Part shown: positions 12,001 to 59,074 of the stretch, one piece after another | Numbering within the stretch: position 1 is the stretch's first letter | How the letters are laid out: every line of letters begins with the position of its first letter | Source of the DNA: Naegleria gruberi | Taxonomy: Eukaryota | DNA: 64,000 bases | Strand: one strand, 5' to 3' | NCBI GenBank assembly: GCA_000004985.1 | Contig: GG738852.1 | Translations under genes and position numbers: made by a program | The notes under the pieces: generated by a model | What the model saw: the letters and a program-made list of their open reading frames with translations, nothing else | The model's database searches: none | Told to the model about the DNA's origin: nothing

Positions 12001-15000
12001 NNNNNNNNNNNNNNNNNNNNNNNNNNNNNNNNNNNNNNNNNNNNNNNNNNNNNNNNNNNNNNNNNNNNNNNNNNNNNNNNNNNNNNNNNNNNNNNNNNNN
12101 NNNNNNNNNNNNNNNNNNNNNNNNNNNNNNNNNNNNNNNNNNNNNNNNNNNNNNNNNNNNNNNNNNNNNNNNNNNNNNNNNNNNNNNNNNNNNNNNNNNN
12201 NNNNNNNNNNNNNNNNNNNNNNNNNNNNNNNNNNNNNNNNNNNNNNNNNNNNNNNNNNNNNNNNNNNNNNNNNNNNNNNNNNNNNNNNNNNNNNNNNNNN
12301 NNNNNNNNNNNNNNNNNNNNNNNNNNNNNNNNNNNNNNNNNNNNNNNNNNNNNNNNNNNNNNNNNNNNNNNNNNNNNNNNNNNNNNNNNNNNNNNNNNNN
12401 NNNNNNNNNNNNNNNNNNNNNNNNNNNNNNNNNNNNNNNNNNNNNNNNNNNNNNNNNNNNNNNNNNNNNNNNNNNNNNNNNNNNNNNNNNNNNNNNNNNN
12501 NNNNNNNNNNNNNNNNNNNNNNNNNNNNNNNNNNNNNNNNNNNNNNNNNNNNNNNNNNNNNNNNNNNNNNNNNNNNNNNNNNNNNNNNNNNNNNNNNNNN
12601 NNNNNNNNNNNNNNNNNNNNNNNNNNNNNNNNNNNNNNNNNNNNNNNNNNNNNNNNNNNNNNNNNNNNNNNNNNNNNNNNNNNNNNNNNNNNNNNNNNNN
12701 NNNNNNNNNNNNNNNNNNNNNNNNNNNNNNNNNNNNNNNNNNNNNNNNNNNNNNNNNNNNNNNNNNNNNNNNNNNNNNNNNNNNNNNNNNNNNNNNNNNN
12801 NNNNNNNNNNNNNNNNNNNNNNNNNNNNNNNNNNNNNNNNNNNNNNNNNNNNNNNNNNNNNNNNNNNNNNNNNNNNNNNNNNNNNNNNNNNNNNNNNNNN
12901 NNNNNNNNNNNNNNNNNNNNNNNNNNNNNNNNNNNNNNNNNNNNNNNNNNNNNNNNNNNNNNNNNNNNNNNNNNNNNNNNNNNNNNNNNNNNNNNNNNNN
13001 NNNNNNNNNNNNNNNNNNNNNNNNNNNNNNNNNNNNNNNNNNNNNNNNNNNNNNNNNNNNNNNNNNNNNNNNNNNNNNNNNNNNNNNNNNNNNNNNNNNN
13101 NNNNNNNNNNNNNNNNNNNNNNNNNNNNNNNNNNNNNNNNNNNNNNNNNNNNNNNNNNNNNNNNNNNNNNNNNNNNNNNNNNNNNNNNNNNNNNNNNNNN
13201 NNNNNNNNNNNNNNNNNNNNNNNNNNNNNNNNNNNNNNNNNNNNNNNNNNNNNNNNNNNNNNNNNNNNNNNNNNNNNNNNNNNNNNNNNNNNNNNNNNNN
13301 NNNNNNNNNNNNNNNNNNNNNNNNNNNNNNNNNNNNNNNNNNNNNNNNNNNNNNNNNNNNNNNNNNNNNNNNNNNNNNNNNNNNNNNNNNNNNNNNNNNN
13401 NNNNNNNNNNNNNNNNNNNNNNNNNNNNNNNNNNNNNNNNNNNNNNNNNNNNNNNNNNNNNNNNNNNNNNNNNNNNNNNNNNNNNNNNNNNNNNNNNNNN
13501 NNNNNNNNNNNNNNNNNNNNNNNNNNNNNNNNNNNNNNNNNNNNNNNNNNNNNNNNNNNNNNNNNNNNNNNNNNNNNNNNNNNNNNNNNNNNNNNNNNNN
13601 NNNNNNNNNNNNNNNNNNNNNNNNNNNNNNNNNNNNNNNNNNNNNNNNNNNNNNNNNNNNNNNNNNNNNNNNNNNNNNNNNNNNNNNNNNNNNNNNNNNN
13701 NNNNNNNNNNNNNNNNNNNNNNNNNNNNNNNNNNNNNNNNNNNNNNNNNNNNNNNNNNNNNNNNNNNNNNNNNNNNNNNNNNNNNNNNNNNNNNNNNNNN
13801 NNNNNNNNNNNNNNNNNNNNNNNNNNNNNNNNNNNNNNNNNNNNNNNNNNNNNNNNNNNNNNNNNNNNNNNNNNNNNNNNNNNNNNNNNNNNNNNNNNNN
13901 NNNNNNNNNNNNNNNNNNNNNNNNNNNNNNNNNNNNNNNNNNNNNNNNNNNNNNNNNNNNNNNNNNNNNNNNNNNNNNNNNNNNNNNNNNNNNNNNNNNN
14001 NNNNNNNNNNNNNNNNNNNNNNNNNNNNNNNNNNNNNNNNNNNNNNNNNNNNNNNNNNNNNNNNNNNNNNNNNNNNNNNNNNNNNNNNNNNNNNNNNNNN
14101 NNNNNNNNNNNNNNNNNNNNNNNNNNNNNNNNNNNNNNNNNNNNNNNNNNNNNNNNNNNNNNNNNNNNNNNNNNNNNNNNNNNNNNNNNNNNNNNNNNNN
14201 NNNNNNNNNNNNNNNNNNNNNNNNNNNNNNNNNNNNNNNNNNNNNNNNNNNNNNNNNNNNNNNNNNNNNNNNNNNNNNNNNNNNNNNNNNNNNNNNNNNN
14301 NNNNNNNNNNNNNNNNNNNNNNNNNNNNNNNNNNNNNNNNNNNNNNNNNNNNNNNNNNNNNNNNNNNNNNNNNNNNNNNNNNNNNNNNNNNNNNNNNNNN
14401 NNNNNNNNNNNNNNNNNNNNNNNNNNNNNNNNNNNNNNNNNNNNNNNNNNNNNNNNNNNNNNNNNNNNNNNNNNNNNNNNNNNNNNNNNNNNNNNNNNNN
14501 NNNNNNNNNNNNNNNNNNNNNNNNNNNNNNNNNNNNNNNNNNNNNNNNNNNNNNNNNNNNNNNNNNNNNNNNNNNNNNNNNNNNNNNNNNNNNNNNNNNN
14601 NNNNNNNNNNNNNNNNNNNNNNNNNNNNNNNNNNNNNNNNNNNNNNNNNNNNNNNNNNNNNNNNNNNNNNNNNNNNNNNNNNNNNNNNNNNNNNNNNNNN
14701 NNNNNNNNNNNNNNNNNNNNNNNNNNNNNNNNNNNNNNNNNNNNNNNNNNNNNNNNNNNNNNNNNNNNNNNNNNNNNNNNNNNNNNNNNNNNNNNNNNNN
14801 NNNNNNNNNNNNNNNNNNNNNNNNNNNNNNNNNNNNNNNNNNNNNNNNNNNNNNNNNNNNNNNNNNNNNNNNNNNNNNNNNNNNNNNNNNNNNNNNNNNN
14901 NNNNNNNNNNNNNNNNNNNNNNNNNNNNNNNNNNNNNNNNNNNNNNNNNNNNNNNNNNNNNNNNNNNNNNNNNNNNNNNNNNNNNNNNNNNNNNNNNNNN

Positions 15001-18000
15001 NNNNNNNNNNNNNNNNNNNNNNNNNNNNNNNNNNNNNNNNNNNNNNNNNNNNNNNNNNNNNNNNNNNNNNNNNNNNNNNNNNNNNNNNNNNNNNNNNNNN
15101 NNNNNNNNNNNNNNNNNNNNNNNNNNNNNNNNNNNNNNNNNNNNNNNNNNNNNNNNNNNNNNNNNNNNNNNNNNNNNNNNNNNNNNNNNNNNNNNNNNNN
15201 NNNNNNNNNNNNNNNNNNNNNNNNNNNNNNNNNNNNNNNNNNNNNNNNNNNNNNNNNNNNNNNNNNNNNNNNNNNNNNNNNNNNNNNNNNNNNNNNNNNN
15301 NNNNNNNNNNNNNNNNNNNNNNNNNNNNNNNNNNNNNNNNNNNNNNNNNNNNNNNNNNNNNNNNNNNNNNNNNNNNNNNNNNNNNNNNNNNNNNNNNNNN
15401 NNNNNNNNNNNNNNNNNNNNNNNNNNNNNNNNNNNNNNNNNNNNNNNNNNNNNNNNNNNNNNNNNNNNNNNNNNNNNNNNNNNNNNNNNNNNNNNNNNNN
15501 NNNNNNNNNNNNNNNNNNNNNNNNNNNNNNNNNNNNNNNNNNNNNNNNNNNNNNNNNNNNNNNNNNNNNNNNNNNNNNNNNNNNNNNNNNNNNNNNNNNN
15601 NNNNNNNNNNNNNNNNNNNNNNNNNNNNNNNNNNNNNNNNNNNNNNNNNNNNNNNNNNNNNNNNNNNNNNNNNNNNNNNNNNNNNNNNNNNNNNNNNNNN
15701 NNNNNNNNNNNNNNNNNNNNNNNNNNNNNNNNNNNNNNNNNNNNNNNNNNNNNNNNNNNNNNNNNNNNNNNNNNNNNNNNNNNNNNNNNNNNNNNNNNNN
15801 NNNNNNNNNNNNNNNNNNNNNNNNNNNNNNNNNNNNNNNNNNNNNNNNNNNNNNNNNNNNNNNNNNNNNNNNNNNNNNNNNNNNNNNNNNNNNNNNNNNN
15901 NNNNNNNNNNNNNNNNNNNNNNNNNNNNNNNNNNNNNNNNNNNNNNNNNNNNNNNNNNNNNNNNNNNNNNNNNNNNNNNNNNNNNNNNNNNNNNNNNNNN
16001 NNNNNNNNNNNNNNNNNNNNNNNNNNNNNNNNNNNNNNNNNNNNNNNNNNNNNNNNNNNNNNNNNNNNNNNNNNNNNNNNNNNNNNNNNNNNNNNNNNNN
16101 NNNNNNNNNNNNNNNNNNNNNNNNNNNNNNNNNNNNNNNNNNNNNNNNNNNNNNNNNNNNNNNNNNNNNNNNNNNNNNNNNNNNNNNNNNNNNNNNNNNN
16201 NNNNNNNNNNNNNNNNNNNNNNNNNNNNNNNNNNNNNNNNNNNNNNNNNNNNNNNNNNNNNNNNNNNNNNNNNNNNNNNNNNNNNNNNNNNNNNNNNNNN
16301 NNNNNNNNNNNNNNNNNNNNNNNNNNNNNNNNNNNNNNNNNNNNNNNNNNNNNNNNNNNNNNNNNNNNNNNNNNNNNNNNNNNNNNNNNNNNNNNNNNNN
16401 NNNNNNNNNNNNNNNNNNNNNNNNNNNNNNNNNNNNNNNNNNNNNNNNNNNNNNNNNNNNNNNNNNNNNNNNNNNNNNNNNNNNNNNNNNNNNNNNNNNN
16501 NNNNNNNNNNNNNNNNNNNNNNNNNNNNNNNNNNNNNNNNNNNNNNNNNNNNNNNNNNNNNNNNNNNNNNNNNNNNNNNNNNNNNNNNNNNNNNNNNNNN
16601 NNNNNNNNNNNNNNNNNNNNNNNNNNNNNNNNNNNNNNNNNNNNNNNNNNNNNNNNNNNNNNNNNNNNNNNNNNNNNNNNNNNNNNNNNNNNNNNNNNNN
16701 NNNNNNNNNNNNNNNNNNNNNNNNNNNNNNNNNNNNNNNNNNNNNNNNNNNNNNNNNNNNNNNNNNNNNNNNNNNNNNNNNNNNNNNNNNNNNNNNNNNN
16801 NNNNNNNNNNNNNNNNNNNNNNNNNNNNNNNNNNNNNNNNNNNNNNNNNNNNNNNNNNNNNNNNNNNNNNNNNNNNNNNNNNNNNNNNNNNNNNNNNNNN
16901 NNNNNNNNNNNNNNNNNNNNNNNNNNNNNNNNNNNNNNNNNNNNNNNNNNNNNNNNNNNNNNNNNNNNNNNNNNNNNNNNNNNNNNNNNNNNNNNNNNNN
17001 NNNNNNNNNNNNNNNNNNNNNNNNNNNNNNNNNNNNNNNNNNNNNNNNNNNNNNNNNNNNNNNNNNNNNNNNNNNNNNNNNNNNNNNNNNNNNNNNNNNN
17101 NNNNNNNNNNNNNNNNNNNNNNNNNNNNNNNNNNNNNNNNNNNNNNNNNNNNNNNNNNNNNNNNNNNNNNNNNNNNNNNNNNNNNNNNNNNNNNNNNNNN
17201 NNNNNNNNNNNNNNNNNNNNNNNNNNNNNNNNNNNNNNNNNNNNNNNNNNNNNNNNNNNNNNNNNNNNNNNNNNNNNNNNNNNNNNNNNNNNNNNNNNNN
17301 NNNNNNNNNNNNNNNNNNNNNNNNNNNNNNNNNNNNNNNNNNNNNNNNNNNNNNNNNNNNNNNNNNNNNNNNNNNNNNNNNNNNNNNNNNNNNNNNNNNN
17401 NNNNNNNNNNNNNNNNNNNNNNNNNNNNNNNNNNNNNNNNNNNNNNNNNNNNNNNNNNNNNNNNNNNNNNNNNNNNNNNNNNNNNNNNNNNNNNNNNNNN
17501 NNNNNNNNNNNNNNNNNNNNNNNNNNNNNNNNNNNNNNNNNNNNNNNNNNNNNNNNNNNNNNNNNNNNNNNNNNNNNNNNNNNNNNNNNNNNNNNNNNNN
17601 NNNNNNNNNNNNNNNNNNNNNNNNNNNNNNNNNNNNNNNNNNNNNNNNNNNNNNNNNNNNNNNNNNNNNNNNNNNNNNNNNNNNNNNNNNNNNNNNNNNN
17701 NNNNNNNNNNNNNNNNNNNNNNNNNNNNNNNNNNNNNNNNNNNNNNNNNNNNNNNNNNNNNNNNNNNNNNNNNNNNNNNNNNNNNNNNNNNNNNNNNNNN
17801 NNNNNNNNNNNNNNNNNNNNNNNNNNNNNNNNNNNNNNNNNNNNNNNNNNNNNNNNNNNNNNNNNNNNNNNNNNNNNNNNNNNNNNNNNNNNNNNNNNNN
17901 NNNNNNNNNNNNNNNNNNNNNNNNNNNNNNNNNNNNNNNNNNNNNNNNNNNNNNNNNNNNNNNNNNNNNNNNNNNNNNNNNNNNNNNNNNNNNNNNNNNN

Positions 18001-19199
18001 NNNNNNNNNNNNNNNNNNNNNNNNNNNNNNNNNNNNNNNNNNNNNNNNNNNNNNNNNNNNNNNNNNNNNNNNNNNNNNNNNNNNNNNNNNNNNNNNNNNN
18101 NNNNNNNNNNNNNNNNNNNNNNNNNNNNNNNNNNNNNNNNNNNNNNNNNNNNNNNNNNNNNNNNNNNNNNNNNNNNNNNNNNNNNNNNNNNNNNNNNNNN
18201 NNNNNNNNNNNNNNNNNNNNNNNNNNNNNNNNNNNNNNNNNNNNNNNNNNNNNNNNNNNNNNNNNNNNNNNNNNNNNNNNNNNNNNNNNNNNNNNNNNNN
18301 NNNNNNNNNNNNNNNNNNNNNNNNNNNNNNNNNNNNNNNNNNNNNNNNNNNNNNNNNNNNNNNNNNNNNNNNNNNNNNNNNNNNNNNNNNNNNNNNNNNN
18401 NNNNNNNNNNNNNNNNNNNNNNNNNNNNNNNNNNNNNNNNNNNNNNNNNNNNNNNNNNNNNNNNNNNNNNNNNNNNNNNNNNNNNNNNNNNNNNNNNNNN
18501 NNNNNNNNNNNNNNNNNNNNNNNNNNNNNNNNNNNNNNNNNNNNNNNNNNNNNNNNNNNNNNNNNNNNNNNNNNNNNNNNNNNNNNNNNNNNNNNNNNNN
18601 NNNNNNNNNNNNNNNNNNNNNNNNNNNNNNNNNNNNNNNNNNNNNNNNNNNNNNNNNNNNNNNNNNNNNNNNNNNNNNNNNNNNNNNNNNNNNNNNNNNN
18701 NNNNNNNNNNNNNNNNNNNNNNNNNNNNNNNNNNNNNNNNNNNNNNNNNNNNNNNNNNNNNNNNNNNNNNNNNNNNNNNNNNNNNNNNNNNNNNNNNNNN
18801 NNNNNNNNNNNNNNNNNNNNNNNNNNNNNNNNNNNNNNNNNNNNNNNNNNNNNNNNNNNNNNNNNNNNNNNNNNNNNNNNNNNNNNNNNNNNNNNNNNNN
18901 NNNNNNNNNNNNNNNNNNNNNNNNNNNNNNNNNNNNNNNNNNNNNNNNNNNNNNNNNNNNNNNNNNNNNNNNNNNNNNNNNNNNNNNNNNNNNNNNNNNN
19001 NNNNNNNNNNNNNNNNNNNNNNNNNNNNNNNNNNNNNNNNNNNNNNNNNNNNNNNNNNNNNNNNNNNNNNNNNNNNNNNNNNNNNNNNNNNNNNNNNNNN
19101 NNNNNNNNNNNNNNNNNNNNNNNNNNNNNNNNNNNNNNNNNNNNNNNNNNNNNNNNNNNNNNNNNNNNNNNNNNNNNNNNNNNNNNNNNNNNNNNNNNN
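1..19199. other. Assembly gap (run of N)
   Basis: All positions are n; no sequence information. Confidence 0.99.
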
Positions 19200-19484
19200 A
19201 ATTCTGCATTTTTGAAACACTATAATGATTTAGTTGATGAGAATGAAAGAATTAAGAAAGAATTGGCTAGATATAAACAGGCAGTCAGAAATATGAATGA
19301 AATGATTAATCAAATGGTGAGCTGTTTAGATGAGTATCAAGATGTCTTTGCATTGGGAGACTCTATTGTGCATCATGATGATAAAACCATTGTGCTCACC
19401 CATAAAGAGAGAGCAAAGATTTGTGAATTAGGTGAGAAAACCTCTCAAATCATGCATGTTTGCTCTACCTACTTTGACGGTTAA
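19200..19484 (+). CDS. 3' end of a protein-coding gene truncated by the gap; hypothetical protein
   Basis: Reading frame open from the first real base to TAA at 19482-19484. The track ORF 19212..19484 begins at a TTG, not ATG. No recognisable domain. Confidence 0.4.
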   Translation, partial: NSAFLKHYNDLVDENERIKKELARYKQAVRNMNEMINQMVSCLDEYQDVFALGDSIVHHDDKTIVLTHKERAKICELGEKTSQIMHVCSTYFDG

Positions 19485-34383: not shown

Positions 34384-35814
34384 ATGAGTGAATTGACGAA
34401 ACTCTTTGAGGATGAGAACTTGAAGAAGAACATTTCATCCCTCCTTTTCTTTATGAGTGAAGTCGAGAAGATAGTAGAAAATCCCACTAGTTATGACCTT
34501 CATATCGCTCTGTATATGGGTGTTGAAAAATTGAAAGATTTTCGATTAAGAACCAAACAGTATAAATTCTGGAAATTCGAGAATGTTATTCCTTTGGATG
34601 TCTATACTGTTACTTCGAAGGAGTGTATTTTAGATGCAAAGCTAACTAAGAATGTTATTTGTACAGAATTGATGGAAGAAGAAAGTGAGAAAGCCAGGGC
34701 TGAGCTCTTGCAAAATGAAGACAGCAAGCAAAAGAACTCGGGCAAAAATAAGAAGAATTCACTTACTAGCAAGGAAAGGAAGAAAACAAGTTCAACAGAC
34801 AACTCAAAGTTAGCTACTCCAGAAAGAAGAGAAGATGTCTCAAAGGAATCAAGGTCTAACTCCAAAGAGAAAAAGGAAAAAGAGTGTTCGAAACCAAATG
34901 TCTCAACAACAATTGTTCCAGTGAGAGAGAATGAAAGTATTCCCAAAACCGACAGTGTTAGAAAGGAAATAACAGGGTCTTTACATACCAATGAACAAGA
35001 AGGTAATCCTTTACCTCTTGCTACAACTTCCATTGATACTCAACTAATATTAAAAGTCATGAATAGAAGATTTGATGCTATTGAAGGAGAATTTGGTGCC
35101 TTCAAAACTGGGTTTGATGAATTAGAAAAAAGATTTGGTGCTTTAGAAGAAAGATTTGGTGTTTTAGAAGAAAGATTTGATGTATTAGAAGAAAGATTTG
35201 ATGTATTAGAAGAAAAATTTGATGTATTAGAAAAAAGATTTGATACAATGGAAAATAGAATCTCTTCTGCAATTGGTATGCTTTATGAAATGAGTTTAGA
35301 GCAGATGTTAAAAGATGAAGGCTTTGAGGTCGAATGCAACGTTGTTTATGACGAGAAAAAATTTGGCCCTCAATTTGACAAGTTAAAGAAAGCCAAGACT
35401 TTAAAAAATACCTGGAATAATTGTTTGCGCAATTTAGAACAACAAAAGAGAATTTCTACAACTCAAAGGTATTCCCTTTCTTTCTACTCTCCATCAATTG
35501 AGTTTAACTTTATTGTTAGAGATAATGAAAGAGTTACAACCCTAGTTGTTGAGGCATCCACTAACAACTTGACAGGAAATGCTCTTATTGTTAAGATGCT
35601 CCAATTGGAACGACAAGTAAGATTCTTCCAGGCTTGTAATTGTAATAATTTAGATTACGTAGCATTTATATCCCCAAGCTTGTTTACTAACACAAATGCT
35701 GAAATGTCAAAACTAATAACTGAGTTTCCAGGAGTATTTGAGAATTTAAAAAACTACAAAGCAAAAGGCAGGCTGTTCTTCAACAGAAAAGGAGCAAGGC
35801 TAAAAATTGAATAA
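34384..35814 (+). CDS. Hypothetical protein with seven tandem EERFDVL heptads; its last ~17 codons lie inside a dispersed ~165-bp repeat
   Basis: 476-aa ORF. K/S/E-rich middle, tandem ERFGALEERFGVLEERFDVLEERFDVLEEKFDVLEKRFDT, C-terminal FFNRKGARLKIE*. Confidence 0.55.
   Translation: MSELTKLFEDENLKKNISSLLFFMSEVEKIVENPTSYDLHIALYMGVEKLKDFRLRTKQYKFWKFENVIPLDVYTVTSKECILDAKLTKNVICTELMEEESEKARAELLQNEDSKQKNSGKNKKNSLTSKERKKTSSTDNSKLATPERREDVSKESRSNSKEKKEKECSKPNVSTTIVPVRENESIPKTDSVRKEITGSLHTNEQEGNPLPLATTSIDTQLILKVMNRRFDAIEGEFGAFKTGFDELEKRFGALEERFGVLEERFDVLEERFDVLEEKFDVLEKRFDTMENRISSAIGMLYEMSLEQMLKDEGFEVECNVVYDEKKFGPQFDKLKKAKTLKNTWNNCLRNLEQQKRISTTQRYSLSFYSPSIEFNFIVRDNERVTTLVVEASTNNLTGNALIVKMLQLERQVRFFQACNCNNLDYVAFISPSLFTNTNAEMSKLITEFPGVFENLKNYKAKGRLFFNRKGARLKIE
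35095..35250 (+). repeat. Tandem 21-bp coding repeat (ttagaagaaagatttgatgta x about 7)
   Basis: Direct reading of the DNA, mirrored in the heptad protein repeat. Confidence 0.8.
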
Positions 35815-35935
35815 GCTAAAATTTAGATTTATTTAGTTTATTTTTGGTAAATTATGAAAGAAATTGGATTAAGGATAAAGATCAAAATTATACAATAAAC
35901 TTAGAATTTCTTATGCTTTTTAACAAATGGTGATT
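35760..35935 (+). repeat. Copy 1 of a ~165-175 bp direct repeat: 3' end of gene 34384..35814 plus downstream spacer plus a pseudo 3' end of the DEAD-box gene
   Basis: About 88% identical to 37320-37495, including an identical 37-mer aaacttagaatttcttatgctttttaacaaatggt. The minus-strand reading gives SPFVKKHKKF*. Confidence 0.8.
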
Positions 35936-36003
35936 AAATGAATTGATTGTTAGCAGAATAAGAGTAAACTTATTGGATTAGATGTTTCAGATCTTCCAAG
36001 AAA

Positions 36004-37245
36004 TTAATATTGTGCATCTTGGTTTTGAACATTTATGGGCTTAGTATTAAATTCTAACAATTGCTTATTTACAACCAAGAGTGTCTTCTCTACAAGTTCT
36101 CTTAATTCTTTAATTTCAAGTTCTACTATTTGCTTTGCGTCATTGAGATATGCTAGAGAGGCTTCATACTGATTTGAGGTGAAGAACAAGGATCTATTAT
36201 TTCTCACTGTATGAATAATTGCATAGCAATATAAATAAATGAACTTTGCACACCTTGTCGTGTGGCAACTAATCTCTAAATTACTACCATTTTTCAAACA
36301 ATCAACATGAATTCCATGAAAATACCCAGTTTTTTCCTTACTCAACAAACTCTCAGAAATGTTACTATACTGATCATCTCCAGGAAGCGATAGTATTTCT
36401 CCTTCCTCAACAAATCTAACCATACTTCCAGAAAGGCCAACTGTTGCACAGCCATGTTGCTGTTTTCCTGTATTCGAGAGAGTTGTTTCTCCAAAAGAGG
36501 CTATCATTTCACTATGACCAGACAATACACCTTGGAGCTTACTAGACACTTCACTGATTACAGCTTCCTTCTCATCTTCAATCAATACAACTTCTCCATT
36601 TTCCATAATTCTTTTGACAACACTTTCAGTAACAAACAAGTCCATGACACAAGAAGGTACACCTCCAATTACAGCACAATTATATGGACATGTTGCAAGT
36701 TTCTTTGGCAACTTGGGCACAACAATGTTTCCTACCAATTCAGGAGGCACACAAACCAGTGCTAAATCAACCTGCGAATACTCCTTATTTAAATCTCTTG
36801 TTTCACGAGTGAGTATTTGCCTAGACCTGAACAAACCAGTTTGAAAGTCAACTTTTTGTGCTCTTCCAACAATATGATCAGCTGATAAACCAAAGCAAGT
36901 AGTGATAAAGTTAACATTTCCTTCTAAATCTCCAGCTATTCGAGCAGTTGTTCCAATATAGGCTGTAAAATCAAAGCTAGACTTTACATGTACAAGTGTA
37001 TTATCATTTCTATTCTCAAGCATAATAGGTGTTCGGGAAACTGTTGAAACTCTGGGAAGCAGAAGAGTAAGATTTTCTTCCCACGAAGGAGGTTTGCTAG
37101 ATACCAAACCAGAGTCATCCACTAGGATTGATAGTCTTGAGAGCTTGGATACCTTTGGAACTATTGGAGTCTCTGATTTGAATTTAACAAGAATACCTTC
37201 TTTTGTTCTTGTAGCCTTTCTTGGGGGTTTTTTGAGTGAGGTCAT
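36004..37245 (-). CDS. Hypothetical protein (413 aa), family not recognised; sits between the two repeat copies
   Basis: ATG-initiated ORF, TAA stop. Weak ASKHA-like DxG (ILVDDSGLV) and an ENG tripeptide (IMENGEVV). No confident assignment. Confidence 0.5.
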   Translation of the reverse strand: MTSLKKPPRKATRTKEGILVKFKSETPIVPKVSKLSRLSILVDDSGLVSSKPPSWEENLTLLLPRVSTVSRTPIMLENRNDNTLVHVKSSFDFTAYIGTTARIAGDLEGNVNFITTCFGLSADHIVGRAQKVDFQTGLFRSRQILTRETRDLNKEYSQVDLALVCVPPELVGNIVVPKLPKKLATCPYNCAVIGGVPSCVMDLFVTESVVKRIMENGEVVLIEDEKEAVISEVSSKLQGVLSGHSEMIASFGETTLSNTGKQQHGCATVGLSGSMVRFVEEGEILSLPGDDQYSNISESLLSKEKTGYFHGIHVDCLKNGSNLEISCHTTRCAKFIYLYCYAIIHTVRNNRSLFFTSNQYEASLAYLNDAKQIVELEIKELRELVEKTLLVVNKQLLEFNTKPINVQNQDAQY

Positions 37246-37319
37246 GAAGAATTTTTTTTAGCTTATTCGATACTTGATTAAAATATCATCAGCATCTCTT
37301 AATAAAACAAAATGATTTT

Positions 37320-37495
37320 AAAAACAAAACACAAGTTGTTCTTCAATAGAAAAGGAACAATATCAAAAATTGAATAAGATTAATTTAGATTTAATTTAGT
37401 TTGTTTTTTTGGTAAATTGGGAAGGAGATTGGATTAAGGAATGATCAAAATTATACAATAAACTTAGAATTTCTTATGCTTTTTAACAAATGGTT
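37320..37495 (+). repeat. Copy 2 of the ~165-175 bp direct repeat; contains the true last 10 codons and stop of the DEAD-box gene plus a relic of the + gene C-terminus (LFFNRKGTISKIE*)
   Basis: Alignment by eye against 35760-35935. Both coding relics stay in frame. Confidence 0.8.
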
Positions 37496-39437
37496 TGCTT
37501 TCACCACCATTGTTATCATTATTCCATGACGATGATCCACCATTGTTATTATCATTATTCCAGTTATTATTGTAACCACCACGGCCACCACCTCTACCAC
37601 CACGACCTCCTCTGAAGCCACCTCTTCCGCCTCTTCCACCTCTACCACCACGACCTCCTCTAAAGTCATCCTTTTCAGTATTGGCATCTAAGAATTCCAT
37701 CAAGCCTCTCTTCTTTGGATTGGCATCTTCAGTGGATTCTTCTTGATTCGATTCTTCTGCTTGTGGAGTTTCTTCTTCCTTATTAAATCTGTTGAATTTC
37801 TTATCGTTATTGAATGATGGTTTGTTGTCATTGTACTTGTCAAAGTTCTTCTTGAAACCACCTCCATTATTATTATTTTGGAAGCCACCTCTGCTCTTCA
37901 AACCAAATGATGATTTCAAACCTTCTTCATCAAAATCATTCATCTTGAAACCCAACTTTCTAGCAAACATATTGAAAACACTACCATAAGTATTAACAAG
38001 TTTGAAAGCATCTCTATTCAATTGATTATTTTGGACAATTGAACAAACTTCTCTTTGAATTTCATCCAATTCTCTATCAGTAACCTTATTATCAAGTTCA
38101 CCAAGCTTTTCCCAATCTTTTTCATCTTCCTTATCACTATTCAACATCATGTTAAAGTATTGGAGAGCAACTTCCTTTTCTCTTGGAGTCAAGAAGAGAA
38201 CTGAGAGACCCTTCTTACCAGCTCTAGCAGTTCTACCTGCTCTGTGGAAATAATCGGCAGGTTGTTCTGGAATATCAAATTGAACAATCAAATCGACATT
38301 AGGGAAATCGAGACCTCTGGCAGCAACGTTAGTAGCAACCAAAATACCAGGATTTCTATCTTCCATAAATTGGAAGAAAATTTCACTTCTCTTTTCTTGT
38401 GTCATATTTCCGCTCAATTGAACAACATTTCCAACTCCTGATGCATTTTGTAAAACAGTTGTTGCAAATTCTACTGACAATTTTGTACTGACGAAAGTAA
38501 TAATCTTCTTATCTACATTATTTCTCAAAACTGAAACGAGAGCAGCCATCTTTTTATCATTTGGAACTTCATAATATCTTTGTTCCAAAGTAGAAACTCT
38601 CTTTGAACCTCCATTATCAAGACCAAGTTTCATAATATCATTCTTTAAAGAAATATGAGCCAAATCATCAACCTTATCAGTCATTGTGGCAGAGAAGAGA
38701 TAGGTTTGACGTTGTTTTGGTAATTGCATAACAATCTTTTTCAAAGTTTCTTCAAAACCAGAATCCAACAAACGATCAGCTTCATCCAAAATAAAGAATT
38801 TAAGATGAGTGCAATCAAGACTTTCTCTTTGAATGTGATCCAAACATTTACCTGGTGAGGCAATTAAAACTCTAACAGTTGGATCAGCTAATTGAGCTTG
38901 TTCAACAGAAACCTTGTTACCTCCGATAACACAAGCAGCCTTATAATTAGTATGTTTTAACAACTTGTCAGCAACAGTTTGAATTTGCAAAGCCAATTCT
39001 CTTGTTGGAGCCAAAACCATAATATAAATACCATGAACATTCTTTTCATTTTCCATCATACAGGACAATGATGGAACCAAGAAGGCAAGAGTTTTACCTT
39101 GACCTGTAGCTGCTTGAGCAATAATATCCTTTCCCTTACCCTTTTCTCCGAGAGCATTTGGAATTGTTAAATGTTGGATAGCAGTCATGTATTCAAATCC
39201 GAACTCCTTCTTTAAAGATTTTAATAATTGTGGATGAATTCCTTCGACTTCTTCAAATTTCATTTTAGAAGCAACAGCATTACCTTCGGCATCTTCAGTG
39301 ACTGGAAGCACGATAGTTTCAACAGATTGCTTCTTTCTGAGTTGAACATTTTCAGAAGCATCAAGTGTTGAGACGTTACCACTGGCATCCTTCAATGTCT
39401 TGGTACCATTCTTGTTAAATTTGATGTGAGCAGGCAT
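37464..39437 (-). CDS. ATP-dependent DEAD-box RNA helicase with a C-terminal RGG/GAR tail
   Basis: Q motif (FEEVEGIHPQLL...TAIQ), motif I AQAATGQGKT, Ia LAPTRELALQI, II DEAD, III SAT, VI HRAGRTARAG. C-terminal GRGGRGGRGGRGGFRGGRGGRGG. Confidence 0.9.
   Translation of the reverse strand: MPAHIKFNKNGTKTLKDASGNVSTLDASENVQLRKKQSVETIVLPVTEDAEGNAVASKMKFEEVEGIHPQLLKSLKKEFGFEYMTAIQHLTIPNALGEKGKGKDIIAQAATGQGKTLAFLVPSLSCMMENEKNVHGIYIMVLAPTRELALQIQTVADKLLKHTNYKAACVIGGNKVSVEQAQLADPTVRVLIASPGKCLDHIQRESLDCTHLKFFILDEADRLLDSGFEETLKKIVMQLPKQRQTYLFSATMTDKVDDLAHISLKNDIMKLGLDNGGSKRVSTLEQRYYEVPNDKKMAALVSVLRNNVDKKIITFVSTKLSVEFATTVLQNASGVGNVVQLSGNMTQEKRSEIFFQFMEDRNPGILVATNVAARGLDFPNVDLIVQFDIPEQPADYFHRAGRTARAGKKGLSVLFLTPREKEVALQYFNMMLNSDKEDEKDWEKLGELDNKVTDRELDEIQREVCSIVQNNQLNRDAFKLVNTYGSVFNMFARKLGFKMNDFDEEGLKSSFGLKSRGGFQNNNNGGGFKKNFDKYNDNKPSFNNDKKFNRFNKEEETPQAEESNQEESTEDANPKKRGLMEFLDANTEKDDFRGGRGGRGGRGGRGGFRGGRGGRGGGRGGYNNNWNNDNNNGGSSSWNNDNNGGESKPFVKKHKKF
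37530..37680 (-). repeat. GC-rich tandem imperfect 9-nt repeat encoding the RGG tail
   Basis: ccacctctaccaccacgacctcctct... units read on the + strand. Confidence 0.6.
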
Positions 39438-56177: not shown

Positions 56178-57797
56178 TTATTTGAAGGAATCGTAAAACT
56201 CTTCTTCGACATTGAAGAAATCCATATCTCCATCTTCTTGCTCTGGTTTTCCACTGAAGATTGATTCCTGGTAGGTATCATCACTATCAAGACGGAAAAT
56301 GTTTTCCACCAGTAAGGGCTGCTTCTCTTTACTTTGATATTCATCATCTATTACTAATTCTTCCTCATGCTCTGGAATCTTTTGACTTTTGATTTGCTTT
56401 GAATTATCATTCCTTCTCAATTCTTCCACCTCATGTTTTAATGTTTCATTTTCTCGAGTAAATTCATGGTTTATCTTTCTCAGTTTAGAGTTGATTTCTA
56501 TTAATTTCTTTCCCTCAGTCTTTAATAGATTATTTTGTTTGACCTGATCCTCCAATTGACGATACAATCCTTGAAACATTAGATTGGAGTAATAGAAGGA
56601 TGGATCCCAAAGCTGGTGTTGAAAGTTTACAGGTATTTGGGTGTTATCTGTAGTAATTGGTGGAGGTATTAAACTTTCAACATTCGAGCTTGTAAGTGGA
56701 GTTTGTTGATTCAAAAGGGCAATCATTGATTCCTGTGAAAGTGCAGATGGGTCATCTGTGGTATATGCCTCACTGGTTGCAAATGGCAGAGCTGCTTCCA
56801 TATCTTCGTCTGTTGTGCTTGCAGCAGCAGCAGTAGCAAATGATGTTGTTTTTTCTAAATCATTTGCAAGAGCTTGATAACTTTCCCTCTCAAAAGAACT
56901 GATTTCACCAAACGAAGACGATGCCAATCCACTTGGGCTAGCTTGAGTTTTTTTCGTAGATTCTTGTTGATCCTCTTCCTTTCGTTTCCTCTTCTTCTTT
57001 CCGTCGACACTTTCTGTGCTATTCTCTTTAGATGAAGAGCTACCCTTCACATTACTCAACACTGGAAATCCCTTCATTGACATGTAGAGATCAACCTTGG
57101 TATCGCTATAATTTGTGAAAGCTAATAGGATTTTAAAATCGCCTGTTCTCTCCTCACCATCACACAAGTAACTCTTCTGACAAAAACATTGGGACTGATA
57201 GCAAGTTCCCTTCTTCTCCAACTTGGACATGGTTGTGACTTTTCTCATCTTATCAAAGAAAGCAAACGAATAAATGCCAGGATAATTGGTACCATCAATT
57301 CCATCAATCAAAAAAGCCTTTCGGGAAAAATTGGTTGCACTCAATCTACATTCTATTGTATTTCTATCTTTAGGGTTTAATACATTGTGCTGTTGGAGAA
57401 AGCCATCAAGAATTGTTTTTAATTTTACAATTGTGCCATGTACTTCATCCGATGTTATTTTACTCTTTGATTTGGTAATGACTTGTTCATTCAGTTGTGC
57501 AAGATTTTCTGCGGTTAGAGTGAGCGGTCTATTGTCTCCACTGTCATCAACCAACAACTGATAAAAAGTCTCACTATAATTGGCCATTTTTTCTTGTTGA
57601 TTTGATTCGGAGAACAAACATATTAGTTTACTTGTGTTGAAACACAACCTTTCTTGTTGCAATACACAAGTTGGAATTTGGCAATAATTATCATAGTAGT
57701 ATGAGCATAGATATAAGAATAATTGTGGCTTGCTGAAATACTGAAAGTCACTTGAATTCAATTTTCGGAAGGAAAATGCTCTATCTGATTCTTTCAT
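56178..57797 (-). CDS. Hypothetical protein (539 aa; may start at the internal ATG MANYSETF, about 57587)
   Basis: ORF with an acidic C-terminus and a C-terminal coiled-coil (LKHEVEELRRNDNS). The N-terminal 70 codons overlap a duplicated ~85-bp element. Confidence 0.5.
   Translation of the reverse strand: MKESDRAFSFRKLNSSDFQYFSKPQLFLYLCSYYYDNYCQIPTCVLQQERLCFNTSKLICLFSESNQQEKMANYSETFYQLLVDDSGDNRPLTLTAENLAQLNEQVITKSKSKITSDEVHGTIVKLKTILDGFLQQHNVLNPKDRNTIECRLSATNFSRKAFLIDGIDGTNYPGIYSFAFFDKMRKVTTMSKLEKKGTCYQSQCFCQKSYLCDGEERTGDFKILLAFTNYSDTKVDLYMSMKGFPVLSNVKGSSSSKENSTESVDGKKKRKRKEEDQQESTKKTQASPSGLASSSFGEISSFERESYQALANDLEKTTSFATAAAASTTDEDMEAALPFATSEAYTTDDPSALSQESMIALLNQQTPLTSSNVESLIPPPITTDNTQIPVNFQHQLWDPSFYYSNLMFQGLYRQLEDQVKQNNLLKTEGKKLIEINSKLRKINHEFTRENETLKHEVEELRRNDNSKQIKSQKIPEHEEELVIDDEYQSKEKQPLLVENIFRLDSDDTYQESIFSGKPEQEDGDMDFFNVEEEFYDSFK
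57607..57690 (+). repeat. Copy 1 of an ~85-bp direct repeat (about 95% identity with 58082-58165); contains an imperfect inverted repeat
   Basis: ggagaacaaac-tatta-tttacttgt-ttgaaacacaa-ctttcttgttgcaatacacaagttggaatttgg shared by both copies. Confidence 0.8.
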
Positions 57798-58081: not shown

Positions 58082-58165
58082 GGAGAACAAACGTATTAAT
58101 TTACTTGTATTGAAACACAATCTTTCTTGTTGCAATACACAAGTTGGAATTTGGATTCTATAATG
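58082..58165 (+). repeat. Copy 2 of the ~85-bp direct repeat, intergenic; the minus strand keeps a pseudo-coding frame (TCVLQQERLCFNTSKLI...)
   Basis: Alignment by eye with 57607-57690. Confidence 0.8.
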
Positions 58166-58408: not shown

Positions 58409-59074
58409 TTACTTTCTGTCTAAAATTGTTGCAACACCAGGCAATTCCCACTTCTTTTCTAACCATACTTTCTTAATGTACATGTAGAAAAAGTCAGCAT
58501 ACAATACAGTTTGAATCAATCCGGCTAACCAAGCATTATAAGGTGAATAACCTTCACCAAAATATCTATAAACCCAATTCAAAATGTAAAAGACACGATA
58601 TCCTCCCAAAGTGAAAACATAATGTGAAGTAATAGCTTCAGCTCCTCCTTTCTTTGTCAATAAGAATAATTGTGGCATGATGGCAAGACTTTCTAAAAAG
58701 ATACTAAAAGTCCACAATAATTCGAATACAGAATAATCATCAGTAAAGATAATACCCAAAATAATAGAAGGAACAATGAGGAAATAAAGTGGGAATGTAT
58801 CACTTTGTGTATCATAGGTTGCACGATATTTAGTTCTCATCAAGTAAACAATAGCAATAGATGAAGCAAGGAAGAAAATCTTCATAAGAGTATTATAAAG
58901 AGAAATGAAGGAAGTAAATAAATCAATTCCGTATCTACAAATAAAAACAATAACATATAAAAATTGTGTTCTTAAAGACACTCCAGCACAATTTTTCAAC
59001 ATGATCATCTTGTAGAGAAGTAAGCAAATTGATCCAAGGTGAAGAAAATCACCAAATAAACGGAAAATATTCAT
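58409..59074 (-). CDS. ERD2: ER lumen protein-retaining receptor (KDEL receptor, ERD2)
   Basis: MNIFRLFGDFLHLGSICLLLYK..SCAGVSLRTQ..ISLYNT..LWTFSIFLESLAIMPQLFL..GGAEAITSHYVF..YILNWVYRY..LIQTVLYADFFYMYI aligns along the whole length with human KDELR1. Confidence 0.92.
   Translation of the reverse strand: MNIFRLFGDFLHLGSICLLLYKMIMLKNCAGVSLRTQFLYVIVFICRYGIDLFTSFISLYNTLMKIFFLASSIAIVYLMRTKYRATYDTQSDTFPLYFLIVPSIILGIIFTDDYSVFELLWTFSIFLESLAIMPQLFLLTKKGGAEAITSHYVFTLGGYRVFYILNWVYRYFGEGYSPYNAWLAGLIQTVLYADFFYMYIKKVWLEKKWELPGVATILDRK

What the first reader, a model, noticed from the sequence alone, without database searches (positions are those of the whole stretch)
35760..37495. Gene of unknown family inserted at a convergent 3'-3' junction, flanked by a ~165-bp direct duplication of the target
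Two ~165-175 bp segments (35760-35935 and 37320-37495, about 88% identical, sharing an identical 37-mer) flank the 1.24-kb minus-strand gene 36004..37245. Each copy carries in frame both the last ~13 codons of the + gene 34384..35814 and the last ~10 codons of the DEAD-box gene 37464..39437. Copy 1 supplies the real + gene end and a relic SPFVKKHKKF*. Copy 2 supplies the real DEAD-box end and a relic LFFNRKGTISKIE*. The simplest reading is that the two neighbours once met at an ~88-bp spacer, and the intervening gene arrived by an event that duplicated that junction. This is structurally odd for a gene of ordinary appearance, and the inserted protein has no family I can recognise
Basis: seen in the sequence. 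Interest (0 to 1): 0.6.

Follow-up and report, generated by a model that had tools for sequence, protein, structure and literature searches.

The report
Relocated gene flanked by duplicated gene-ends
In the amoeba Naegleria gruberi, a 1.4-kb piece of DNA carrying one protease-like gene sits between two tail-to-tail genes whose ends and spacer were copied on both sides of it; a distant relative of that gene shows the same footprint in another organism, so the event may recur.

Summary
Window 35758-35931 and 37321-37494 are direct copies (152/177 identical, last 52 nt identical) around a 1389-bp insert whose only gene is 36004..37245(-). This gene is N. gruberi NAEGRDRAFT_46722.

Each copy holds the 3' coding end of orf476, an 86-nt spacer and the 3' coding end of the DEAD-box gene. 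The outer halves are the working gene ends; the inner halves are relics. The DEAD-box C-terminus (KP..KKHKKF*) is conserved in N. lovaniensis and N. fowleri, so the relic comes from that gene and not from a generic repeat.

A second strain assembly (99.5% identical) has the same arrangement, so this is not an assembly artefact.

The gene does belong to a family. It is small and, as far as sampled, heterolobosean (Willaertia, N. gruberi, environmental contigs). It has His/Asp/GxSGS motifs and weak but consistent fold matches to chymotrypsin-like serine proteases.

A 31%-identical relative on a metagenome contig is flanked by a 307-bp, 94%-identical duplication of a different convergent junction.

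My best reading is DNA-level relocation of a single-gene cassette into a staggered break whose long overhangs were filled in. Neither insert shows transposon or retrocopy hallmarks. Whether this family is unusually mobile remains open.

The parts
34384..35814 (+). Left neighbour orf476 (N. gruberi XP_002680740.1, NAEGRDRAFT_46721). A coiled-coil protein with 7-aa tandem repeats. Its real 3' end, the last 19 codons plus the stop, lies inside copy 1.
35758..35931 (.). Copy 1 of the duplicated convergent junction. It holds the real orf476 3' end (to 35814), an 86-nt spacer (35815-35900) and the relic of the DEAD-box 3' end.
35901..35933 (-). Relic of the DEAD-box C-terminus, SPFVKKHKKF*. It is 31/31 identical to the real end within the repeat and is preceded by an in-frame stop.
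35932..37320 (-). Inserted segment of 1389 bp: orf413 with 75 nt of its own 5' flank and 72 nt of its own 3' flank. It has no poly(A) tract, no terminal inverted repeats and no second gene.
36004..37245 (-). orf413 (N. gruberi XP_002680909.1, NAEGRDRAFT_46722). Member of a small family seen so far only in heteroloboseans. Candidate catalytic motifs are SADHIVG (His), VDLALV (Asp) and GLSGSMV (Ser). It probably has a chymotrypsin-like protease fold followed by a C-terminal helical domain. GC3 is 0.261, the same as its neighbours.
37321..37494 (.). Copy 2 of the duplicated junction. It holds the relic of the orf476 3' end, an 86-nt spacer (37378-37463) and the real DEAD-box 3' end (37464-37494).
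37321..37377 (+). Relic of the orf476 C-terminus, ...KLFFNRKGTISKIE*. It now lies in the region upstream of orf413.
37464..39437 (-). Right neighbour, a DEAD-box RNA helicase (DDX18/HAS1-like) with an RGG-rich tail. It is 76% identical to N. lovaniensis and 74% to N. fowleri, and its C-terminus is conserved.

Best explanation
The window is Naegleria gruberi NEG-M. orf476 (+) and the DEAD-box helicase gene (-) once abutted tail to tail across an 86-bp spacer.

A 1.39-kb DNA segment carrying one complete gene, orf413, with about 75 nt of its own flank on each side, was inserted into that junction at the DNA level. The target was opened by two nicks on opposite strands about 174 bp apart, one inside the last codons of each neighbour. 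The resulting long single-stranded overhangs were filled in and the fragment was joined between them by end joining.

The junction is therefore present on both sides of the insert. Both neighbours keep an intact 3' end on the outside, and dead copies of those ends lie on the inside.

What is shown:
- the duplication, the relics and their derivation from the neighbours;
- the single-gene content of the insert;
- persistence of the arrangement in a second strain;
- an independent second case around a distant family member.

What is inferred:
- the staggered-break and fill-in mechanism;
- that the event was a relocation, since no close paralogue was found, rather than a duplication whose donor was later lost.

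The cargo is a native-looking, lineage-restricted gene that probably encodes a divergent chymotrypsin-fold serine protease with a helical C-terminal domain. I see it as a passenger in the event, not the agent of it.
For: Repeat and relics.

The DEAD-box C-terminus is conserved in two other Naegleria species, so the copy 1 relic comes from that gene.

Independent assembly of a second strain has the same layout.

Second case, contig L006:
- 473-778 and 2253-2559 are 289/307 identical and flank a 1474-bp insert that carries family member P0127.
- Copy 1 holds the real end of a + strand gene plus a relic of the last 33 codons of a Rhomboid gene.
- Copy 2 holds a decayed relic of the + gene's last 62 codons (premature stop, 1-nt insertion) plus the real Rhomboid end.

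Features of both inserts:
- The duplication lengths differ (174 vs 307 bp) and the boundaries are sharp.
- The two inserts share no terminal motifs and have no TIRs and no poly(A).

Context:
- Insert composition matches the host (GC 0.366, GC3 0.261).
- The surrounding genes are ordinary housekeeping genes.
- There is no RNA gene or tRNA at the site.

Precedent: filled-in overhangs from paired staggered single-strand breaks are an established explanation for duplications of tens to hundreds of bp at rearrangement breakpoints (PMC7584159, read, citing Ranz et al. 2007 and Kehrer-Sawatzki et al. 2005).
Against: - No empty site was found. The three related genomes available share no synteny here, so the pre-insertion state is inferred only from the relics.
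- The donor locus is unknown.
- Two of five examined family loci show this rare footprint, and none of roughly 60 other genes in about 110 kb of heterolobosean DNA does. That hints at something specific to this family, which a generic break-repair accident does not explain.
- The 52-nt perfectly identical block inside an otherwise roughly 80%-identical repeat needs an extra assumption, either gene conversion or constraint.
- The staggered-nick step is not directly testable from sequence. A replication template-switch would leave the same product.
Confidence: 0.55

Rival explanations
1. The orf413 family is itself a mobile genetic unit of a previously undescribed kind in Heterolobosea. It would be a single-gene cassette that repeatedly integrates at convergent 3'-3' gene junctions, making target duplications of 170-310 bp. 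The mechanism would depend on the element or its product, or on a helper encoded elsewhere.
For: - Two independent insertions of distant family members (31% identity) share one architecture: both sit at convergent junctions, both duplicate both coding ends, and the inserts are 1389 and 1474 bp.
- No comparable gene-flanking duplication was seen in about 110 kb of other heterolobosean sequence.
- The family is patchy, multi-copy and decays readily. There is a 2-bp frameshift in a second N. gruberi strain, a frameshifted and deleted copy in L008, a frame break in L006, and a paralogue that has lost His and Ser.
Against: - The insert ends show no conserved sequence, TIRs or hairpins.
- The duplication length is not fixed.
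- The only product looks like a protease, not a DNA enzyme.
- Paralogues are 25-36% identical and there is no burst of near-identical copies.
- Three other loci (L005, L008, L011/L012) lack flanking repeats, and L011 is not at a convergent junction.
- After allowing for how the first case was found, one further case in four loci is only suggestive.
Confidence: 0.17
2. Replication-based template switching (FoSTeS/MMBIR-like). A nascent strand copying the junction jumped to the orf413 donor locus, copied 1.39 kb, and returned 174 bp upstream of where it left. This gives junction-insert-junction without any staggered break.
For: - The product is identical to what is observed.
- Variable duplication length is expected under this model.
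- Convergent gene ends are plausible sites of fork stalling. This last point is inference from general knowledge and was not tested.
Against: - No microhomology is visible at the four accessible boundaries, although the donor sequences needed to judge this are unavailable.
- The model does not explain why the same family was hit twice.
Confidence: 0.15
3. Retroposition. An orf413 mRNA was reverse-transcribed and inserted by a LINE's target-primed machinery, with an unusually distant second-strand nick producing a long target duplication.
For: - Naegleria carries APE/RT LINEs. One sits just downstream of the DEAD-box orthologue in N. fowleri.
- orf413 is an uninterrupted ORF.
- The insert is roughly transcript-sized.
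Against: - Neither insert has a poly(A) tract at its 3' end, including the young one (6% divergence) in L006.
- The L006 copy has a frame break that GT..AG introns of 47-59 nt would repair.
- The N. fowleri LINE has an ordinary direct repeat of about 25 bp, not 174-307 bp.
Confidence: 0.05
4. Two separate events: first a tandem duplication of the 174-bp junction, and later an insertion of the gene exactly between the two copies. Alternatively, the repeat is an assembly artefact.
For: Short tandem duplications are common. Elsewhere in the window there is a 73-nt direct repeat 473 bp apart.
Against: - It requires the insertion to land precisely at the copy boundary, twice, in two organisms.
- An artefact is excluded by the 25 differences between copies and by the independent contig L001.
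Confidence: 0.05

Closest known systems
Breakpoint duplications from paired staggered single-strand breaks (the 'isochromatid' model for Drosophila and primate inversions; Ranz et al. 2007 and Kehrer-Sawatzki et al. 2005, as summarised in PMC7584159)
   Same: - Target sequence of tens to hundreds of bp is duplicated on both sides of the rearranged segment.
- The length is variable and the boundaries are sharp.
- No element-specific ends or enzyme are needed.
- Repair is by fill-in and end joining.
   Different: - Here the rearranged segment is a 1.4-kb single-gene insert, so the duplications are direct rather than inverted.
- The nicks fall inside the coding ends of two convergent genes.
- The same gene family is involved in two independent events.
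Target-site duplications of transposons and LINE-mediated retrocopies
   Same: An inserted segment is flanked by a direct duplication of the target.
   Different: - Those duplications are typically short and characteristic of the element, for example about 25 bp at the N. fowleri LINE seen here.
- This case has 174 and 307 bp, with no TIRs, no transposase or RT, and no poly(A).
Campbell-type or site-specific integration restoring a target gene's 3' end (integrative elements at tRNA genes)
   Same: The target gene's 3' end is duplicated, so the gene stays intact after integration.
   Different: - No integrase is present.
- The duplicated sequence is target-specific and differs between the two events, so the insert cannot have carried it in.
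- Both neighbours' ends are duplicated.
PA-clan (chymotrypsin-fold) serine peptidases of the S1B/S1C and viral 3C-like/astrovirus type
   Same: - His, Asp and Ser occur in that order, with motifs of the kind xxAxHV, D(L/I)xL(V/L) and GxSGSxV.
- Fold searches return only such proteases for the beta-rich part.
   Different: - There is no significant sequence or profile match.
- A long insertion separates Asp and Ser.
- There is an extra N-terminal region and a C-terminal helical domain.
- The family has been found only in heteroloboseans and related environmental contigs.

Membership tests
PA-clan (chymotrypsin-fold) serine peptidase | Catalytic His, Asp and Ser in that order, within the conserved motifs | tested here: met
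   Alignment A1. His (SADHIVG / TAQHVIG / TCKHVVG), Asp (DLALV / DLELV / DIQLF / DIVLL) and GxSGS (GLSGS / GFSGS / GYSGS) are conserved in orf413, P0122, P0123, P0127 and, apart from an ambiguous Asp column (DNLKLV), P0124. The N. gruberi paralogue P0129 has lost His and Ser.
PA-clan (chymotrypsin-fold) serine peptidase | Double beta-barrel fold | tested here: inconclusive
PA-clan (chymotrypsin-fold) serine peptidase | Significant match to a curated protease profile or to a solved protease sequence | tested here: not met
   Pfam gives nothing for orf413. Trypsin_2 scores E = 0.25 for one of eight members. A profile search of PDB sequences returns nothing.
PA-clan (chymotrypsin-fold) serine peptidase | Peptidase activity | not testable with these tools
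   This needs expression and an activity assay, with Ser-to-Ala and His-to-Ala mutants as controls.
Cut-and-paste DNA transposon | Terminal inverted repeats or conserved element ends, a transposase gene, and a short target duplication of fixed length | tested here: not met
   There are no TIRs in either insert and no similarity between the ends of the two inserts. The only ORF is protease-like. The duplications are 174 and 307 bp.
LINE-mediated processed retrocopy | 3' poly(A) tract abutting the target duplication, and absence of introns | tested here: not met
   Neither insert has an A-run at its 3' end. The L006 copy has a frame break compatible with a retained GT..AG intron of 47-59 nt. orf413 itself is uninterrupted, which is uninformative.
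Staggered-break insertion with filled-in overhangs | Direct duplication of target sequence on both sides, with sharp boundaries and a length that varies between events | tested here: met
   174 bp at 86% identity and 307 bp at 94% identity, with relic gene ends on the inside and functional ends on the outside.
Staggered-break insertion with filled-in overhangs | An unoccupied ancestral junction in a relative, and an identifiable donor locus | not testable with these tools
   N. lovaniensis, N. fowleri and Willaertia share only the DEAD-box gene with this region.
Site-specific (integrase/att) integrative element | A recombinase gene, and the same att core at independent insertions | tested here: not met
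   Neither insert has a recombinase. The two duplicated junctions are unrelated sequences: orf476/DEAD-box versus gene A/Rhomboid.

The most novel reading that the evidence does not exclude
The orf413 family marks a new class of eukaryotic mobile gene in Heterolobosea. It would be a roughly 1.4-kb single-gene cassette, without transposase, RT or terminal repeats, that relocates into convergent gene junctions with target duplications of 170-310 bp that preserve both neighbours. If so, it would also expose the mechanism behind the extreme gene-order scrambling between Naegleria species.
Probability: 0.12. Interest if true: 0.85.

Novelty: new variant of a known kind. Interest (0 to 1): 0.45.

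Why it matters
Gene order around this locus is completely different between N. gruberi and N. lovaniensis or N. fowleri, and how single genes move in these compact genomes is not known.

This locus, together with the independent L006 case, preserves a readable footprint of one such move. A gene-sized DNA insert sits inside a long duplication that keeps both convergent neighbours intact.

If a genome-wide scan finds more such footprints, it would give a concrete and testable mechanism for gene relocation in Heterolobosea. If they cluster on this family, it would point to a new kind of mobile gene.

The work also attaches a first structural hypothesis, a divergent chymotrypsin-fold protease, to a set of 'predicted proteins' that had no annotation.

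Tried and rejected
- **Synteny test.** I fetched DEAD-box orthologue loci with 10-kb flanks from N. lovaniensis, N. fowleri and Willaertia. tblastx shows that only the helicase gene is shared with the window, so no empty site could be shown.
- **Family extension.** A profile search with the family alignment returned only two members already known, because the candidate cap was filled. The metagenome scan gave one spurious locus, L007, with no tblastn match to the family. The viral-contig scan found nothing. The full alignment A1 was too divergent for the search for related loci.
- **N. gruberi records.** Exact look-ups of N. gruberi gene products found no encoding contig. The locus of the paralogue NAEGRDRAFT_48741 and of Willaertia KAL9654252 could therefore not be examined.
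- **Structure.** The single-sequence AlphaFold model was useless (pLDDT 34). The afdb50 library was unavailable.
- **Sequence-level protease assignment.** Not significant.
- **Literature.** Searches for the locus tags and for run ERR1078381 found nothing.
- **Hypotheses rejected.**
  - Foreign or viral origin: composition equals the neighbours and there are no viral relatives.
  - The 174-bp unit as a dispersed repeat: the DEAD-box C-terminus is ancestral.
  - An RNA gene or tRNA as the target.
- **An idea of mine that did not hold.** I thought the perfectly conserved 52-nt block might reflect reuse of the duplicated DEAD-box 3' UTR as orf413's terminator. L006 does not support this: there the better-conserved part lies 5' of the family gene.
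Full report
**What the window is.** Positions 1-19199 are N padding, and real sequence starts at 19200. The DNA is about 33% GC. The exact products of two ORFs are N. gruberi proteins: orf413 is XP_002680909.1 (NAEGRDRAFT_46722) and orf476 is XP_002680740.1 (NAEGRDRAFT_46721), both on a 938,756-bp scaffold. The DEAD-box helicase at 37464..39437(-) is 76% identical to its N. lovaniensis orthologue, 74% to N. fowleri and 62% to Willaertia magna. Surrounding genes are ordinary: an FtsJ/G-patch methyltransferase, a cyclin, an ARMH3-like protein and a 2H phosphoesterase.

**The observation.** The repeat finder and a gapped local alignment give copy 1 = 35758-35931 and copy 2 = 37321-37494. Identity is 152/177 (85.9%), and blastn self-comparison gives E = 1e-49.
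- Copy 1 holds the real end of orf476 (stop at 35812-35814), an 86-nt spacer, and SPFVKKHKKF* on the minus strand (35901-35933).
- Copy 2 holds ...LFFNRKGTISKIE* (37336-37377), an 86-nt spacer, and the real DEAD-box end SKPFVKKHKKF*.
- The identical block is 52 nt (35880-35931), not 37. Identity elsewhere is about 80%. A run that long occurs in 0.2% of column shuffles.
- I have no tested explanation for that heterogeneity. Gene conversion and shared constraint are both possible.

**Is the duplication real?** The copies differ at 25 positions. An independent Logan contig from run ERR1078381 (L001, 2401 bp, 99.5% identical) runs from inside the DEAD-box gene through copy 2 and the whole insert, and stops 15 nt into copy 1. 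In that strain orf413 has three synonymous changes, one non-synonymous change and a 2-bp deletion in a CTCTCT run that breaks the frame.

**Direction of the event.** The DEAD-box C-terminus KP..KKHKKF* is conserved in N. lovaniensis and N. fowleri. The fragment in copy 1 is therefore a relic of that gene and not a generic repeat into which two ORFs happen to run. The ancestral state must have been orf476 and DEAD-box meeting 3' to 3' across the 86-nt spacer. The present state is junction, 1389-bp insert (35932-37320), junction.

**The insert.** It carries only orf413, with 75 nt of 5' flank and 72 nt of 3' flank. It has no poly(A), no terminal inverted repeats and no RNA gene. Its composition is that of the host: GC 0.366 and GC3 0.261, against 0.21-0.31 for six neighbouring genes.

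**Related genomes.** In N. lovaniensis the DEAD-box gene is followed on the same strand by TrmO, a class-I tRNA synthetase and an Arf GTPase. N. fowleri is the same, with a LINE (RT plus APE endonuclease) inserted between the helicase and TrmO. Willaertia is different again. tblastx shows that only the helicase is shared with the window. The orf476/DEAD-box junction is therefore specific to the N. gruberi lineage, and an empty site could not be found with the data reachable here.

**The protein.**
- Pfam finds nothing, and the word-indexed search found only the Logan fragment.
- An exhaustive phmmer search found relatives: two Willaertia magna proteins (KAL9642786, 34% identity, E = 6e-30; KAL9654252), an N. 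gruberi paralogue (XP_002677804.1, in the cluster of P0126), and environmental proteins P0123, P0127 and P0128. Those three all come from one sample, present as ERZ27315067, SRR636569 and JGI 3300002220. One hit, a mollusc dachsous-like repeat protein, I judge spurious.
- The alignment shows conserved blocks LLLPRVS, N(I/V)DF, GNxxF(I/L)T, (S/T)AxHV, D(L/I)xL(V/L), VVPQ(I/V)PP, YNCAV, GHSC(S/T)T..G(F/Y)SGSxVRF, P(I/V)FHGIH and KFIYLYC. This is a His...Asp...GxSGS order typical of chymotrypsin-fold serine proteases.
- The paralogue has lost the His and the nucleophile Ser.
- With the eight-sequence alignment AlphaFold gives a weak model (pLDDT 44.6, pTM 0.51).
  - All 50 best Foldseek PDB hits are chymotrypsin-fold proteases (arterivirus nsp4, astrovirus protease, Rv3671c, HtrA, trypsins) at E of about 1e-3.
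  - The viral structure library gives the same families.
- Sequence-level support is not significant.
- I therefore call it a probable divergent PA-clan protease domain followed by a helical C-terminal domain, and I do not file it as a proven member.

**A second case.** This is the result that changes how the finding should be read. On the 5.5-kb metagenome contig L006, family member P0127 is 31% identical to orf413. It lies in a 1474-bp insert (779-2252) flanked by 473-778 and 2253-2559, which are 289/307 identical.
- Copy 1 holds the real last 62 codons of a + strand gene (14-658), a 21-nt spacer, and a relic of the last 33 codons of a Rhomboid gene.
- Copy 2 holds a decaying relic of the first gene (a premature stop and a 1-nt insertion) and the real end of the Rhomboid gene at 2461-3144(-).
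- This is the same architecture at an unrelated convergent junction, so it is an independent event.
- The two inserts share no terminal sequence, and the younger one also lacks poly(A).
- The L006 copy has a frame break that GT..AG introns of 47-59 nt would repair.

**Other family loci.** The Willaertia locus L005 and the contigs L008 and L011/L012 show no flanking duplication. L011 is not at a convergent junction, and L008 is a frameshifted, internally deleted pseudogene.

**Background rate.** In about 110 kb of heterolobosean DNA (the window plus L002-L005) the only other direct repeat of 60 nt or more separated by non-repeat sequence is a 73-nt intergenic pair; the third hit is the tandem coding repeat inside orf476. 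After allowing for how the first case was ascertained, one more case among four loci is suggestive of a family-specific tendency. It is not proof.

**Mechanism.** The product is target-insert-target, with the length varying between events (174 and 307 bp). It has blunt-looking boundaries, no element ends, no poly(A) and no recombinase.
- This fits insertion of a DNA fragment into a break made by two nicks on opposite strands, followed by fill-in of the long overhangs and end joining.
- The same logic is accepted for duplications at inversion breakpoints in Drosophila and primates (PMC7584159). The difference is that an insertion gives direct rather than inverted copies.
- A replication template-switch would give the same product and cannot be excluded without the donor locus.
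- Retroposition is unlikely. The N. fowleri LINE next to the orthologous helicase gene has a direct repeat of about 25 bp, which shows what LINE target duplications look like in this genus.
- Because both nicks fell within the coding ends, the duplication is what kept both neighbours intact. That is probably also why such events survive at convergent junctions.
- No close paralogue of either inserted gene was found. The events therefore look like relocations, or like duplications whose donors were lost.

**Verdict.**
- The 'no family' statement is corrected.
- The mechanism is a variant of a known class of rearrangement footprint.
- The open and more interesting possibility is that this gene family is unusually mobile. 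I give that about 0.12-0.17.

Noticed in passing
window 1-19199: This stretch is entirely N. Real sequence begins at 19200, so the window starts off the end of the scaffold or in padding.
   Followed up: yes
L006 473-778 and 2253-2559 (ENA ERZ27315067 k141_736654): A 307-bp, 94%-identical direct duplication of a different convergent junction (unknown + gene / Rhomboid) flanks a 1474-bp insert that carries a distant orf413 homologue. This is an independent second instance of the same architecture.
   Followed up: yes
L001 (Logan ERR1078381), equivalent to window 36481-36482: In a second N. gruberi-like strain (99.5% identical), orf413 has a 2-bp deletion in a CTCTCT run that splits it into 275-aa and 139-aa ORFs. 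The gene may be dispensable or polymorphic, or this may be an assembly error.
   Followed up: partly
L003 12052-12076 and 15993-16017 (N. fowleri VFQX01000011.1): A LINE (RT plus APE endonuclease, 1249 aa, minus strand) is inserted between the DEAD-box orthologue and TrmO, which are adjacent in N. lovaniensis. It is flanked by a 25-nt direct repeat (23/25 identical) that ends 2 nt into the TrmO ATG.
   Followed up: partly
window 37464-39437 vs L002/L003/L004: There is no conserved gene order on either side of the DEAD-box gene between N. gruberi and N. lovaniensis, N. fowleri or Willaertia within 10 kb. Only the helicase itself matches.
   Followed up: yes
window 57609-57681 and 58082-58154: A 73-nt direct repeat, 94.5% identical and 473 bp apart, lies in the intergenic region between a 539-aa ORF and the 221-aa membrane-protein ORF at 58409..59074(-). 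Its origin is unexplained.
   Followed up: no
window 35046-35280 (inside orf476): Eight tandem 21-nt units encode the heptad (R/K)F(D/G)xLEE. There are weak Pfam hits to the coiled-coil families DUF7310 and DUF3782. The function of orf476 is unknown.
   Followed up: no
N. gruberi XP_002677804.1 (P0129), alignment A1: The N. gruberi paralogue of orf413 has Ser in place of the motif His and Lys in place of the GxSGS nucleophile. It is probably a pseudo-enzyme.
   Followed up: partly
L008 1619-2657 (ENA ERZ27315067 k141_851471): This family member is closest to the orf413 N-terminus but is split over three reading frames and lacks the equivalent of residues 200-270. The same 136-aa product appears in three independent assemblies, so it is likely a true pseudogene.
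   Followed up: partly
L005 4722-5946 (Willaertia magna JBEGDK010000159.1): A 1.2-kb stretch that matches itself in reverse complement (65-71% identity) lies immediately upstream of the Willaertia homologue P0122.
   Followed up: no
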